Of a stretch of DNA of 28,129 bases, positions 6,766-8,226 are shown in pieces (within the stretch, counting starts at the first letter, position 1; each line of letters opens with the position of its first letter). The stretch spans positions 1-28,129 of the forward strand of contig QKAI01000268.1 in the NCBI GenBank assembly GCA_003246505.1, in the 5' to 3' direction. Under the pieces are notes generated by a model. That model was not told where the DNA came from. It did not search any database and saw nothing but the letters and a program-made list of their open reading frames with translations. The translations under genes and the position numbers were made by a program. The DNA is from Spirochaetaceae bacterium (GTDB lineage Bacteria; Spirochaetota; Spirochaetia; DSM-2461).

Positions 6766-8226
6766 ATGAAAAGAAATAACTGGAAAATCGGGCCAACCGC
6801 CCGGATGATTATGATTGGTGCGACGATTATTTTATCAGGAAGCTGCGATATCTTTACCCCGTCCCAAAACAGTTCCCCCGAGAGTATCCCTTCTTATCTG
6901 GGGAAGGGATATGATGCTTTCGATCCCTATGCGGATTCCACATGTGTAACCGATTCTATTCTTGATGTTTCTGCCATGAAGAAGGCGGGACTCCTGGAGA
7001 TGTCTAGGGAAGAAAATTCCACGACCTATGGGATGAGCGGCGAGAGCGTATCCGAATATCTGTCCTCCTACCAAGTCAGTGTGGGAGTATCCTCCGACTA
7101 CAAAGTCTTCTCTGGCACTCTCCGGTCAAAATTCGGCTCAGCATCCTATTCCTCCCTGACATCGGGATACGCCACCTATACCAGTACCATCAGGAAGTAT
7201 AAGGAAAAAGTTCTGAATCAGTATAATGACGCCGCTTCTCTCCGTCCTTATGTTAAGGATGAGGTCCTAACGGCTCTCGACGAATGTGAATCCGTCGATG
7301 ATGCGCTTAACCTGTTTACGGCATACGGCACCCATGTCATACTATGGGACTATCTTGGCGCTAGGGTGGATTATCATGCGACAACCACATCCTCCGACAC
7401 CTCATTCATCGGCAATTTCGCCACCCGCGTCTCCACCGCATTTAAAGGGCTCTCCACCGATGTCTCTTACAGTAGCGGAACGGCGTACAGCGATTTCATC
7501 AGCGAAGCTTCGACGGAACTGCAGATCTACGGGGGGCCTTCCCAGTATGCCAACTCAATTCTGACGGGGGACTATTCCACCTGGGAAGACGGTATAGGTG
7601 ATTCTTCCACATGGACTCTATGCGACTTTGGTCAGGACGATTCAGTGGACAGCCTTATGCCTATCTGGGATCTCTGCTCCGGAGACGATGACGGAGTGGA
7701 TGAGGTCGCCCTTCTGGAAGACGCCTTTGATGTCTGGGCGGATGATAAAGAAGTGGATGTGACCGTGATTAACCCGTCCTCCTATACTGTCAAGTTTTCC
7801 CTCGACTACGTATACTGCTACATTGGCGATGAGGGTGATCACCAGGCGGAATTCCAGGGAAAGCTTTCCATAGATGGTTCCACACTTTGGAGGATCTTAG
7901 ACGATAACAAAAGCTATTTCAGTGCTTGGGATTGCAGCGAAGACGATTGGGTGAAGACAGATACCAGTGGCTACGTGGATTCATCGGATCGCTATAGCAG
8001 TGTAACGAGGACTTTTGCCGATATGGAAGATGAAATCATTCTCAAGGTAAATAGTCTGACAGAGATTGATTCCGTGAACAATGACGAATTCTCAACATCC
8101 TCAAAGACCTATCAGGTAGATGATATCATTGGTTGGGACGGCAAGCATATGGTCATCACCTCGAGCGACGGGGACAACCGCGTTAAATTCTATATTCTCA
8201 TGGATGTAACGAAAAATTACGACTAA
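6766..8226 (+). CDS. MACPF (membrane attack complex/perforin) domain lipoprotein with an acidic C-terminal beta-rich domain
   Basis: AAGGAG RBS; lipobox ILSGS-C27; LGKGYDAF; Ser/Thr-rich TMH-like segments; MACPF signature variant YGTHV-ILWDYL-GA (7324-7362; canonical (Y/W)G(T/S)H(F/Y)x6GG); IYGG; W...TLCDF...LMPIWDL. Confidence 0.82.
   Translation: MKRNNWKIGPTARMIMIGATIILSGSCDIFTPSQNSSPESIPSYLGKGYDAFDPYADSTCVTDSILDVSAMKKAGLLEMSREENSTTYGMSGESVSEYLSSYQVSVGVSSDYKVFSGTLRSKFGSASYSSLTSGYATYTSTIRKYKEKVLNQYNDAASLRPYVKDEVLTALDECESVDDALNLFTAYGTHVILWDYLGARVDYHATTTSSDTSFIGNFATRVSTAFKGLSTDVSYSSGTAYSDFISEASTELQIYGGPSQYANSILTGDYSTWEDGIGDSSTWTLCDFGQDDSVDSLMPIWDLCSGDDDGVDEVALLEDAFDVWADDKEVDVTVINPSSYTVKFSLDYVYCYIGDEGDHQAEFQGKLSIDGSTLWRILDDNKSYFSAWDCSEDDWVKTDTSGYVDSSDRYSSVTRTFADMEDEIILKVNSLTEIDSVNNDEFSTSSKTYQVDDIIGWDGKHMVITSSDGDNRVKFYILMDVTKNYD

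What the first reader, a model, noticed from the sequence alone, without database searches (positions are those of the whole stretch)
6766..8226. Perforin-like MACPF lipoprotein in a probable free-living spirochaete
The protein has a lipoprotein signal, the LG.GYD start, Ser/Thr-rich alternating segments that fit TMH1/TMH2, a YGTHV-x6-GA signature variant and the LMPIWDL end. This architecture resembles Bacteroidetes MACPF lipoproteins, some of which (BSAPs) are antibacterial pore-forming toxins. MACPF proteins are sporadic in bacteria, and I know of no characterised spirochaete example. The GG-to-GA change at the hinge and the absence of an obvious adjacent immunity gene leave toxin versus non-lytic role open.
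Basis: partly seen in the sequence, partly recalled or inferred. Interest (0 to 1): 0.8.

Follow-up and report, generated by a model that had tools for sequence, protein, structure and literature searches.

The report
Perforin-like lipoprotein in a vent spirochaete
A spirochaete from a hydrothermal vent carries a horizontally acquired, probably lipid-anchored relative of perforin and of bacterial insect-killing pore toxins, joined to a C2-like membrane-binding domain and paired with its own membrane-bound regulator; it is an uncharacterised branch of a well-known toxin family, not a new kind of system.

Summary
Window 6766-8226 (+) is an intact 486-aa ORF with a strong ribosome-binding site, a lipoprotein signal (Cys27), a short tether, a MACPF domain (about residues 44-330) and a 150-aa beta-sandwich C-terminal domain.

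MACPF identity:
- Pfam alone is marginal (21.3 bits against a 21.5 cut-off).
- phmmer finds the solved MACPF toxins Mpf2Ba1, GNIP1Aa and Plu-MACPF.
- A 72-sequence family profile hits them at 1e-80 to 1e-56.
- The AlphaFold model superposes on them at Z 26-28, against Z 21 for Bacteroides Bth-MACPF and 7-8.5 for CDC-like proteins.

- GA in place of the signature GG is the majority state in this subfamily (38 of 72).
- The real hinge GG (256-257) is intact.
- The nearest solved relatives are Plu-MACPF/Mpf-type toxins, not Bth-MACPF, the only solved Bacteroides MACPF; BSAP sequences could not be compared.

New points:
- The C-terminal domain is C2-like, as in perforin, not a beta-prism or beta-tripod.
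- The gene travels with a 7TMR-DISM/LuxR membrane regulator as a low-GC two-gene module absent from same-genus genomes.
- MACPFs are rare in the phylum (4 of 400 genomes).

The most likely function is a regulated, surface- or vesicle-borne pore-forming toxin. The target is unresolved and lytic activity is unproven.

The parts
5099..6679 (+). Gene for a 526-aa polytopic membrane regulator: an extracytoplasmic N-terminal region, a 7TMR-DISM-type 7TM block (residues 219-409) and a C-terminal LuxR/GerE helix-turn-helix (465-516). It lies 86 bp upstream of the MACPF gene on the same strand.
   Evidence: Pfam GerE 1.7e-16; 7TMR-DISM_7TM 4.5e-5, below the cut-off. A 54%-identical orthologue sits in the same position before the P0004 MACPF in L014, whose flanks are otherwise unrelated. 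No orthologue was found in 37 genomes of the family (best 30% identity). GC is 0.510 against a window mean of 0.585.
6753..6758 (+). Shine-Dalgarno sequence AAGGAG, 7 nt before the ATG at 6766
   Evidence: Read directly from the sequence.
6766..8226 (+). MACPF lipoprotein gene (486 aa plus stop)
6766..6846 (+). Type II (lipoprotein) signal peptide, residues 1-27: a K/R-rich n-region, a hydrophobic core and the lipobox L-S-G-S-C with Cys27.
   Evidence: Matches the PROSITE-type lipobox pattern. Cys27 is invariant in 6 close homologues and the aligned column is Cys in 57 of 72 relatives.
6847..6894 (+). Flexible tether, residues 28-43 (DIFTPSQNSSPESIPS)
   Evidence: Low pLDDT (58-68) and no secondary structure in the model. 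It is variable among the homologues.
6895..7755 (+). MACPF domain, residues 44-330
   Evidence: VIA-align Z 28.4 to Mpf2Ba1, 27.6 to GNIP1Aa, 25.6 to Plu-MACPF, 21.2 to Bth-MACPF and 16.6 to perforin. Profile E-values of 1.9e-80 to 4e-56.
7042..7164 (+). Predicted TMH1 helical cluster, residues 93-133, between strands 77-92 and 134-149
   Evidence: Model secondary structure. 39% Ser+Thr, with a period-2 hydrophobic moment peaking at 100-107. Aligns without large gaps to the same region of Mpf2Ba1. F115 and F123 are kept in 66-67 of 72.
7324..7362 (+). MACPF signature variant YGTHVILWDYLGA, residues 187-199
   Evidence: G188 and G198 are invariant, T189 and H190 are kept in 67 of 72, and position 199 is A in 38 and G in 33.
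7387..7506 (+). Predicted TMH2 helical cluster, residues 208-247, between strands 194-207 and 248-255
   Evidence: Model; 40% Ser+Thr.
7531..7593 (+). Hinge GG (256-257) and helix-turn-helix (259-276, including the invariant W273)
   Evidence: G256 is kept in 70 of 72, G257 in 71 of 72 and W273 in 72 of 72. Helices 259-266 and 270-276 are in the model.
7768..8223 (+). C-terminal C2-like beta-sandwich domain, residues 335-486
   Evidence: The domain model has pLDDT 87.6 and pTM 0.84. All 50 top Foldseek PDB matches are C2 domains, including the perforin C2. VIA-align gives Z 7.9 to Cry37Aa1, 6-7 to C2 domains and 6.2 to the perforin C2. The best shape match is the C-terminal part of a Bacteroidota cytolysin-like cluster, TM 0.78. 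There is no sequence match in Pfam, NCBIfam or PDB.
8062..8088 (+). Conserved acidic loop E433-x-D435-x4-D440-E441 after the long strand of the C-terminal domain; a candidate Ca2+/membrane-binding loop
   Evidence: E433, D435 and D440 are invariant in the 8-sequence alignment A4. The Ca2+ role is inference only.

Best explanation
The gene encodes an exported, lipid-anchored pore-forming protein of the MACPF family. After signal peptidase II cleavage and acylation at Cys27, the protein would hang by a 16-residue tether from the outer membrane or from vesicles shed from it. Its C2-like C-terminal beta-sandwich would bind the target membrane, perhaps through acidic, aromatic-bearing loops. The MACPF domains would then assemble into a ring, and the two Ser/Thr-rich helical clusters (93-133 and 208-247) would unfurl into beta-hairpins that form a large beta-barrel pore. 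This is the pathway shown for its nearest solved relative, Mpf2Ba1. Release from the anchor or proteolytic trimming of the N-terminus may be the activating step, as in Mpf2Ba1 and BSAP-1. Expression is probably set by the membrane-embedded 7TMR-DISM/LuxR regulator encoded just upstream. The two genes form a module that this lineage acquired horizontally. What is shown: the domain identities, the fold, the motif conservation, the module's conservation and its patchy distribution. What is inferred: lipidation, surface or vesicle location, pore formation, the regulatory link and the target. My split for the target is roughly 40% competing bacteria, 35% eukaryotic cells such as grazers or hosts, and 25% no lytic role. 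The confidence of 0.6 is for the whole functional statement; for the narrower claim that this is a MACPF-domain lipoprotein it is about 0.97.
For: MACPF identity:
- phmmer gives Mpf2Ba1 1.6e-11, GNIP1Aa 1.6e-9 and Plu-MACPF 1.8e-7.
- The family profile gives 1.9e-80, 4.3e-68 and 4.1e-56, and also finds PLP1, C6, perforin, C8 and MPEG1.
- 71 of 72 relatives hit PF01823.
- The AF2 model has pLDDT 83 and the canonical b1-TMH1-b2...b3-TMH2-b4-HTH order.
- Foldseek gives 1e-20 and VIA-align Z 25-28 to the three bacterial toxins.

Key residues are kept: G188, H190, G198, R200, G256, G257 and W273.

Export: a lipobox with an invariant Cys, and 49 of 72 relatives also carry a lipobox.

C-terminal domain: it is C2-like and recurs at the C-terminus of Bacteroidota cytolysin-like and MACPF proteins.

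Purifying selection is implied by four intact orthologues at 58-65% identity with long invariant blocks.

Module and transfer:
- The regulator plus MACPF pair is conserved in L014, at 54% and 58% identity, with unrelated flanks.
- The MACPF was not found in the 3 same-genus genomes; the only match among 37 family genomes is a 33%-identical paralogue in G006. No regulator orthologue was found in those genomes.
- In the complete same-genus genome the two flanks lie 3.5 Mb apart.
- GC is 0.485 and GC3 0.561 against window means of 0.585 and 0.775.

The pore pathway of Mpf2Ba1 and its N-terminal activation come from PMC10344926. The BSAP architecture comes from PMC12853789.
Against: - No activity data exist for any member of this clade.
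- To my knowledge (not checked here), no lysis has been shown for two solved bacterial relatives, Plu-MACPF and Bth-MACPF, so the fold does not prove pore formation.
- The Pfam score of the protein itself is just under the gathering cut-off.
- The signature ends GA, not GG, and has V where F/Y is usual.
- The TMH2 segment shows a stronger helical than strand periodicity.
- The C2 assignment rests on middling scores (Z 6-8, TM 0.4-0.5 to solved C2 domains) and has no sequence support.
- Asp at +2 after the lipidated Cys would mean inner-membrane retention in E. coli. To my knowledge spirochaetes do not follow that rule, but the location is untested.
- No immunity or receptor-variant gene is adjacent, so self-protection is unexplained.
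- No promoter or terminator consensus was found around the gene.
- Control by the upstream regulator is inferred from adjacency alone.
Confidence: 0.6

Rival explanations
1. A non-lytic MACPF lipoprotein. The fold is kept, but the protein serves membrane binding, adhesion or some envelope or nutrient-related role without forming pores.
For: To my knowledge (not checked here), several bacterial MACPFs with solved structures (Plu-MACPF 2qp2, Bth-MACPF 3kk7) have no demonstrated lytic activity. The GG-to-GA and F/Y-to-V departures lie in the signature. No immunity gene is nearby. The neighbours are glycan and sugar utilisation genes in the window and in L014.
Against: All residues most conserved across active MACPFs are kept, including the hinge GG and W273. 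GA is shared by half of the subfamily. Both TMH clusters are of normal length and align to those of the active toxin Mpf2Ba1. The patchy, transferred distribution and the dedicated regulator are what one expects of a weapon rather than a housekeeping envelope protein.
Confidence: 0.25
2. A BSAP-type narrow-spectrum antibacterial toxin. The C-terminal domain recognises a specific outer-membrane protein or glycan of closely related spirochaetes, and the producer is resistant because it carries a different receptor allele.
For: The layout is the same as in BSAPs: lipidated Cys, disordered N-terminal stretch, MACPF, C-terminal domain (PMC12853789). The C-terminal domain's best shape matches are the C-terminal parts of Bacteroidota cytolysin-like and MACPF proteins. 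The strain-level presence/absence within a genus is typical of antagonism genes.
Against: No receptor-like outer-membrane protein or LPS-glycan gene is adjacent in any of the four loci. By sequence and fold the MACPF domain is closer to the insect-active Mpf toxins (Z 26-28) than to the one solved Bacteroides MACPF (Z 21, with no sequence-profile hit). A C2-like fold suggests lipid binding rather than protein or glycan recognition. BSAP sequences themselves could not be compared here.
Confidence: 0.3
3. A member of the CDC-like (CDCL) family rather than a MACPF.
For: A weak Pfam Thiol_cytolysin match (E 0.0044, 16.3 bits). Language-model features put it nearest to clusters named 'thiol-activated cytolysin family' (score 0.96). 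Many CDCLs are lipoproteins (PMC7527733).
Against: VIA-align Z to CDCL structures is 7.2-8.5 and to CDCs 7.6, against 25-28 to MACPFs. The family profile finds no CDC or CDCL chain in the PDB at E<=0.01. Only 3 of 72 relatives touch PF01289, against 71 for PF01823. There is no YGR tripeptide. No partner short/long CDCL gene is adjacent.
Confidence: 0.03

Closest known systems
Mpf-type bacterial MACPF toxins: Mpf2Ba1 (Pseudomonas; PDB 8b6u/8b6v), GNIP1Aa (Chromobacterium piscinae; 6fbm) and Plu-MACPF/Mpf1Aa1 (Photorhabdus luminescens; 2qp2)
   Same: Closest by sequence (phmmer 1.6e-11 to 1.8e-7; profile 1e-80 to 1e-56) and by fold (Z 25.6-28.4, 279-287 residues at about 3 A, 22-24% identity). 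[quoted passage not shown] The TMH lengths are the same, and the FxG, GxR and GG motifs are conserved.
   Different: Those proteins carry a beta-prism (Mpf2Ba1, Plu-MACPF) or beta-tripod (GNIP1Aa) C-terminal domain (PMC10344926). Here the domain is a C2-like sandwich, and none of them appears among its top 50 matches. As far as I know they are not lipoproteins, whereas this protein has a lipobox. They are insect-active toxins of Pseudomonadota; this one comes from a vent spirochaete and its target is unknown.
Bacteroidales secreted antimicrobial proteins (BSAP-1 to -4) and Bth-MACPF (BT_3439; PDB 3kk7)
   Same: Lipidated N-terminal Cys, a disordered tether, a MACPF domain and C-terminal domain(s) (PMC12853789). 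Strain-variable, horizontally acquired genes. The fold match to Bth-MACPF is Z 21.2.
   Different: The family profile has no sequence-level match to 3kk7 at E<=0.01. No Bacteroidota lipoprotein export signal is expected in a spirochaete. No adjacent receptor-orthologue gene is present. A dedicated membrane regulator lies upstream instead.
Perforin-1 (MACPF-EGF-C2; PDB 3nsj, C2 domain 4y1t)
   Same: A MACPF domain followed by a C2-type beta-sandwich. The whole model aligns over both domains (391 residues, Z 16.6), and the isolated C-terminal domain matches the perforin C2 (Foldseek 1.6e-3; Z 6.2). Acidic loops at one end of the sandwich recall the Ca2+-binding regions.
   Different: There is no EGF linker and no sequence similarity in the C2-like part (no PF00168 hit). 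Ca2+ dependence is untested. The resemblance of the C-terminal domain is probably convergent or very distant.
CDC-like proteins (EaCDCL long and short forms; PDB 6xd4, 8g33)
   Same: The same superfamily. Many are lipoproteins (PMC7527733). The C-terminal domain here resembles the C-terminal part of a cluster annotated as this family (TM 0.78).
   Different: The pore-forming domain is clearly MACPF, not CDCL (Z 7-8.5 against 28). There is no YGR motif and no two-component long/short gene pair.

Membership tests
MACPF (Pfam PF01823; MACPF/CDC superfamily) | Significant sequence match to the family model or to proven members | tested here: met
   The Pfam score is 21.3 bits (E 3.2e-4), 0.2 bits under the gathering cut-off. 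phmmer to solved MACPFs reaches 1.6e-11. The profile of 72 relatives gives 1.9e-80 and also reaches perforin, C6, C8 and MPEG1. 71 of 72 relatives hit PF01823.
MACPF (Pfam PF01823; MACPF/CDC superfamily) | A bent four-stranded antiparallel sheet flanked by two helical clusters (TMH1, TMH2), with a helix-turn-helix at the bend | tested here: met
   The AF2 model (pLDDT 83.3) has strands 77-92, 134-149, 194-207 and 248-255, helical clusters 93-133 and 208-247, and an HTH at 259-276. Z is 28.4, 27.6 and 25.6 to solved bacterial MACPFs. This is a predicted structure, not a solved one.
MACPF (Pfam PF01823; MACPF/CDC superfamily) | Signature Y/W-G-T/S-H-F/Y-x6-G-G | tested here: inconclusive
   The sequence reads Y-G-T-H-V-x6-G-A. 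Five of seven fixed positions fit. V191 is the majority residue in the subfamily (50 of 72), and A199 occurs in 38 of 72 against G in 33. Mpf2Ba1, a proven pore former, itself departs from the pattern at the first position (alignment). The pattern is therefore not strictly defining.
MACPF (Pfam PF01823; MACPF/CDC superfamily) | Oligomeric beta-barrel pore formation | not testable with these tools
   Needs protein, liposomes and EM.
Mpf / Plu-MACPF-type two-domain toxins | C-terminal beta-prism (or beta-tripod) receptor-binding domain | tested here: not met
   The C-terminal domain, folded alone, matches C2-type sandwiches. 8b6u, 2qp2 and 6fbm are absent from its top 50 by Foldseek and by VIA-align. 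phmmer alignments to those chains stop at residue 326.
BSAP (Bacteroidales secreted antimicrobial proteins) | Lipoprotein with N-terminal Cys, a disordered region, a MACPF domain and C-terminal domain(s) | tested here: met
   Lipobox with Cys27, tether 28-43, MACPF 44-330 and C-terminal domain 335-486. The BSAP layout is from PMC12853789.
BSAP (Bacteroidales secreted antimicrobial proteins) | Gene sits beside, or replaces, the gene for the target receptor (OMP or LPS glycan locus), giving producer resistance | tested here: not met
   The neighbours are a regulator and a sugar ABC permease in the window. The three other loci have AraC or 7TMR-LuxR regulators, glycoside hydrolases and defence genes. 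The BSAP genomic rule is from my own knowledge of the Comstock-group papers cited in PMC7527733.
BSAP (Bacteroidales secreted antimicrobial proteins) | Close sequence kinship to BSAP-1 to -4 | not tested
   No BSAP sequence was available through the tools. Only Bth-MACPF (3kk7) could be compared: fold Z 21.2, with no profile hit.
CDC-like proteins (CDCL) | Thiol_cytolysin-type D3 domain with the conserved FF...YGR motif | tested here: not met
   PF01289 scores 16.3 bits against a cut-off of 25. There is no YGR in the protein. Z to CDCL structures is 7.2-8.5.
C2 domain (PF00168) | Sequence match to the C2 model | tested here: not met
   No PF00168 hit at E<=1. No PDB sequence hit with the domain profile at E<=10.
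C2 domain (PF00168) | Eight-stranded C2-type beta-sandwich fold | tested here: inconclusive
   All 50 best Foldseek hits, and nearly all VIA-align hits, are C2 domains. The scores are middling: E 4e-4, TM 0.40-0.49, Z 6-7.9.
C2 domain (PF00168) | Clustered Asp residues binding Ca2+ at the membrane-facing loops | tested here: inconclusive
   E433, D435 and D440 are invariant in 8 sequences, and other loops are acid-rich. No coordinates were available to check the geometry, so Ca2+ binding is untested.
Bacterial lipoproteins (signal peptidase II substrates) | Basic n-region, hydrophobic core and a lipobox ending in Cys within the first 35 residues | tested here: met
   K2, R3, K7 and R13; the core MIMIGATIIL; S-G-S-C27. 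It matches the pattern [LIVMFWSTAG]2-[LIVMFYSTAGCQ]-[AGS]-C. The orthologues have the canonical L-G-S-C. Lipidation itself is not testable here.

The most novel reading that the evidence does not exclude
This would be the first spirochaetal pore-forming MACPF toxin. It would be a bacterial protein with perforin's own logic: a MACPF domain plus a Ca2+-dependent, lipid-binding C2-like domain. It would be displayed on the cell surface or on vesicles and switched on by a membrane sensor that detects an external, perhaps glycan, cue. A free-living vent spirochaete would use it to kill protist grazers or LPS-free neighbours. The sensor-plus-toxin pair would move between spirochaete lineages as a two-gene cassette.
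Probability: 0.25. Interest if true: 0.6.

Novelty: new member of a known kind. Interest (0 to 1): 0.4.

Why it matters
MACPF pore formers are best known from animal immunity, from a few insecticidal toxins and from the gut Bacteroidales. This clade extends them to free-living spirochaetes of a deep-sea vent. It has only four full-length members, plus two shorter sequences that lack the C-terminal domain, among 5.8 billion clustered proteins. It shows that the MACPF engine has been recombined with yet another targeting domain, here a C2-like sandwich also seen on Bacteroidota cytolysin-like proteins. In every locus examined for this clade, the toxin gene also sits next to a membrane-embedded transcription factor, so it offers a simple model for how bacteria decide when to deploy a pore former. 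If the protein is active, it would be a tractable perforin-like protein (MACPF plus a C2-like domain) for structural work. None of this changes the known picture of the family: it is a useful annotation and a modest lead.

Tried and rejected
- The Pfam scan alone was borderline. NCBIfam gave nothing for the protein or its C-terminal domain.
The scan with the 6-sequence alignment returned only one locus. A named taxonomic spread of the wider family therefore could not be obtained, and the tree rows stay anonymous except for those from the spirochaete phylum.
- The CDCL reading raised by the language-model look-alikes was rejected on fold and profile evidence.
- A beta-prism or beta-tripod C-terminal domain, as in Mpf2Ba1, Plu-MACPF and GNIP1Aa, was looked for and not found.
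- A conserved C286-C304 disulfide was considered. The two Cys do not co-vary across the family (27 both, 26 one only). The C351/C390 pair co-varies, but only in 4 sequences.
- FlaA was sought in the MAG itself as a spirochaete marker and not found. The MAG is 81% complete and FlaA is in 36 of 37 family genomes, so this is probably incompleteness.
- Promoter and terminator scans around the gene gave nothing above the shuffled expectation.
- Model coordinates are not exposed, so the geometry of the acidic loops could not be checked.
- An expression check by RNA runs was not attempted. Only vent DNA metagenomes hold the sequence.
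Full report
**1. The observation**

Window 6766-8226 (+) is an uninterrupted 486-codon ORF. An AAGGAG box sits 7 nt upstream of its ATG.
- The N-terminus has a basic n-region, a hydrophobic core and S-G-S-C27. This satisfies the PROSITE-type lipobox pattern.
- Cys27 is invariant in the six close homologues, four of which show the canonical L-G-S-C.
- YLGKGYD (44-50), YGTHVILWDYLGA (187-199) and LMPIWDL (297-303) fall on columns that are strongly conserved among 72 relatives.
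- Segments 93-133 and 208-247 hold 39-40% Ser+Thr against 22% for the whole protein.

**2. Is it a MACPF?**

Pfam alone is marginal: PF01823 scores 21.3 bits against a cut-off of 21.5 (E 3.2e-4), with a weaker Thiol_cytolysin match. Everything else is decisive.
- phmmer against PDB sequences finds Mpf2Ba1 (1.6e-11), GNIP1Aa (1.6e-9) and Plu-MACPF (1.8e-7).
- An exhaustive search of 1.84 billion cluster representatives gives 622 relatives at E<=1e-3.
- 71 of 72 aligned relatives hit PF01823, the best at 1.4e-18.
- A profile of those 72 hits Mpf2Ba1 at 1.9e-80, GNIP1Aa at 4.3e-68 and Plu-MACPF at 4.1e-56. It also reaches TgPLP1, C6, perforin, C8 and MPEG1.
- The AlphaFold2 model (pLDDT 83.3, pTM 0.72) has the canonical order: strand, helical cluster, strand, helices, strand, helical cluster, strand, GG, helix-turn-helix.
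- Foldseek ranks GNIP1Aa, Plu-MACPF and Mpf2Ba1 first, at 1e-20 to 3e-19.
- VIA-align gives Z 28.4, 27.6 and 25.6 to those three. It then gives Bth-MACPF 21.2, TgPLP1 19, MPEG1 18 and perforin 16.6. CDCL and CDC structures reach only 7-8.5.

The protein is therefore a MACPF. Among solved structures it belongs with the Plu-MACPF/Mpf group rather than with the Bacteroides protein.

**3. The GA 'hinge' point**

Position 199 is Ala in 38 and Gly in 33 of the 72 relatives, so GA is the commoner state of the subfamily. In the model this motif lies at the start of the strand that precedes TMH2. The Gly-Gly at the bend before the helix-turn-helix is 256-257, and it is kept in 70-71 of 72. W273 is invariant. 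The sequence gives no reason to think the pore machinery is disabled. It does not prove activity either.

**4. The C-terminal domain**

Homology to the solved toxins stops at about residue 326. Neither Pfam, NCBIfam nor a domain profile against the PDB finds anything for residues 330-486.

Folded on its own with seven homologous domains, the region gives a confident beta-sandwich (pLDDT 87.6, pTM 0.84).
- All 50 best Foldseek matches in the PDB are C2 domains, among them Itch, E-Syt, Munc13, and the perforin C2 at 1.6e-3.
- A Foldseek-independent scan of 48,161 chains puts Cry37Aa1 first (Z 7.9). To my recollection Cry37Aa1 has a C2-like fold; this was not checked here. C2 domains of PLC-beta, cPLA2, Munc13 and intersectin follow at Z 6-7, and the perforin C2 at Z 6.2.
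- These scores are middling, so I call the domain C2-like, not a C2 family member.
- The beta-prism of Mpf2Ba1 and Plu-MACPF and the beta-tripod of GNIP1Aa (PMC10344926) do not appear among the matches.
- Against ESM Atlas models, the best match is the C-terminal part of a Bacteroidota 'thiol-activated cytolysin family' cluster (TM 0.78, 2.3 A over 143 residues). Another is a Bacteroidota BACON+MACPF cluster (TM 0.69). The sandwich thus seems to be a recurrent accessory domain of bacterial MACPF/CDCL proteins.
- E433, D435 and D440 are invariant in the eight aligned domains, and the neighbouring loops are acidic with aromatic residues. A Ca2+/lipid-binding tip is a reasonable but untested idea.
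- Whole-model alignment to perforin covers both domains: 391 residues, Z 16.6.

**5. Whose gene is it, and how did it get there?**

The window is contig 327 of a 3.59-Mb, 552-contig, 81%-complete MAG.

Origin of the MAG:
- The only named homologue, P0003 (65% identity by the genome search, 61-62% by BLAST-type alignment), lies in an 'uncultured Spirochaetales bacterium' MAG.
- The spirochaete flagellar sheath family FlaA is present in 36 of 37 genomes of the window's GTDB family and in none of 14 control genomes.
- The contig's flanks match a complete same-genus genome at 74-81% nucleotide identity, so the contig is not a binning stray.
- The DNA is held by hydrothermal-vent metagenome runs.

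Distribution of the MACPF:
- It was not found in the three same-genus genomes. In the other 34 family genomes there is one 33%-identical paralogue.
- It was found in only 4 of 400 sampled genomes of the phylum.
- In a maximum-likelihood tree the query and its three full-length orthologues form a tight clade on a long stem (support 100). That clade is sister to two anonymous sequences. The four other spirochaete-phylum MACPFs fall in four different clades.

Signs of transfer:
- In the complete same-genus genome, the window's left flank (2116-4975) and right flank (8323-11478) lie 3.5 Mb apart, and nothing matches 5099-8226.
- The MACPF gene has the lowest GC in the window: 0.485, with GC3 0.561. 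The other 20 genes average 0.585 (sd 0.033), with GC3 0.775 (sd 0.09). The upstream regulator gene is the second lowest at 0.510.

Together these point to horizontal acquisition.

**6. A conserved partner**

The gene 86 bp upstream on the same strand (5099-6679) encodes a polytopic membrane protein with a 7TMR-DISM-type 7TM block and a C-terminal LuxR/GerE helix-turn-helix.
- A 54%-identical orthologue occupies the same position before the 58%-identical MACPF of L014. The other neighbours of L014 (GH38, GH28, GH63) are unrelated to those of the window.
- No orthologue of the regulator exists elsewhere in the GTDB family (best 30% identity).
- The other two orthologues (L012, L002) instead have a divergently transcribed polytopic-membrane AraC-type regulator. 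The two copies are 77% identical to each other.
- A more distant spirochaete-phylum MACPF (L016) follows a HATPase-receiver-LytTR regulator.

All five of these loci thus have a dedicated regulator directly upstream, and in the four loci of this clade it is membrane-embedded. That regulated deployment follows from this is my inference. No conserved small ORF that could be an immunity gene is present in any of the four loci.

**7. Mechanism**

By analogy with Mpf2Ba1 (monomer, N-terminal cleavage, pre-pore ring, beta-barrel; PMC10344926) and with BSAPs (surface-exposed lipoproteins whose C-terminal domain picks the receptor; PMC12853789), I propose the following sequence.
- Export and lipidation at Cys27.
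- Display on the outer surface or on vesicles through the 16-residue tether.
- Target-membrane binding by the C2-like domain.
- Oligomerisation of the MACPF domain.
- Insertion of the two hairpins formed from residues 93-133 and 208-247.

Only the domain identities and their conservation are shown. The rest is inferred. The target class is open.
- The nearest solved relatives act on insect cells, and a C2-like fold suggests lipid binding. This favours eukaryotic or LPS-free membranes.
- The lipoprotein layout, the strain-variable distribution and the Bacteroidota look-alikes of the C-terminal domain favour interbacterial antagonism.
- A non-lytic role cannot be excluded because, to my knowledge, no lysis has been shown for Plu-MACPF or Bth-MACPF.

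**8. Novelty and verdict**

No paper in the searchable library describes a spirochaete MACPF. However, lipoprotein MACPFs are a large known bacterial family: 49 of 72 relatives carry a lipobox. The pore-forming domain here is orthodox. This is a new, very small and uncharacterised clade of a known kind. It has a different targeting domain and a conserved sensor-regulator partner. Interest is moderate.

Noticed in passing
L012:5736-6842 (-) and L002:4782-5888 (-): The two other MACPF orthologues (P0002, P0003) are preceded by a divergent 368-aa protein. It has a long hydrophobic, apparently multi-spanning N-terminal half and a C-terminal AraC (HTH_18) domain. The two copies are 77% identical. 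So a second type of membrane-embedded regulator is paired with the same toxin.
   Followed up: partly
L016:51-1262 (+): A more distant spirochaete-phylum MACPF (G181) follows a HATPase_c / receiver / LytTR hybrid regulator on the same strand. This is a third kind of dedicated regulator next to a MACPF gene.
   Followed up: no
L005:2535-3911 (-): In the one family genome with a paralogous MACPF (G006), a 458-aa ORF with no Pfam match overlaps the start of the MACPF gene by 4 bp. It is a possible operon partner of unknown function.
   Followed up: no
L002:1-4812: The P0003 MACPF locus lies beside BREX/PglY-like (BrxC, DUF6079), AAA_33 and SNF2-related genes, which looks like a phage-defence or variable island.
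   Followed up: no
G000 (whole MAG): No FlaA (PF04620) match was found in the window's own MAG, although 36 of 37 genomes of its family, including all three of its genus, have 1-3 copies. This is probably due to 81% completeness, but it was not checked further.
   Followed up: partly
window 8240-8268: An inverted repeat, TCCCGG...CCGGGA, lies in the 95-bp gap between the convergent MACPF and ABC-permease genes. It has no T-run, and the terminator scan did not call it.
   Followed up: no
L019 (G314:C19:53114-53581): An 879-aa open frame in another spirochaete-phylum genome matches only the C-terminal-domain part (positions 322-475) of the family profile (E 5e-15). The accessory domain may therefore occur outside MACPF proteins.
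   Followed up: no
P0001 (window 6766-8223): Language-model look-alikes place this MACPF nearest to clusters auto-named 'thiol-activated cytolysin family' (score 0.96), whereas HMM and fold evidence say MACPF. Automatic names in this superfamily are unreliable.
   Followed up: yes
window 5099-6679: 7TMR-DISM-type membrane proteins are abundant in this spirochaete family, with up to 9 matches per genome. Most sit in 570-860-aa open frames whose C-terminal parts do not match the query (output domains not examined). Matches extending into the LuxR/GerE region are few and at most 30% identical.
   Followed up: partly
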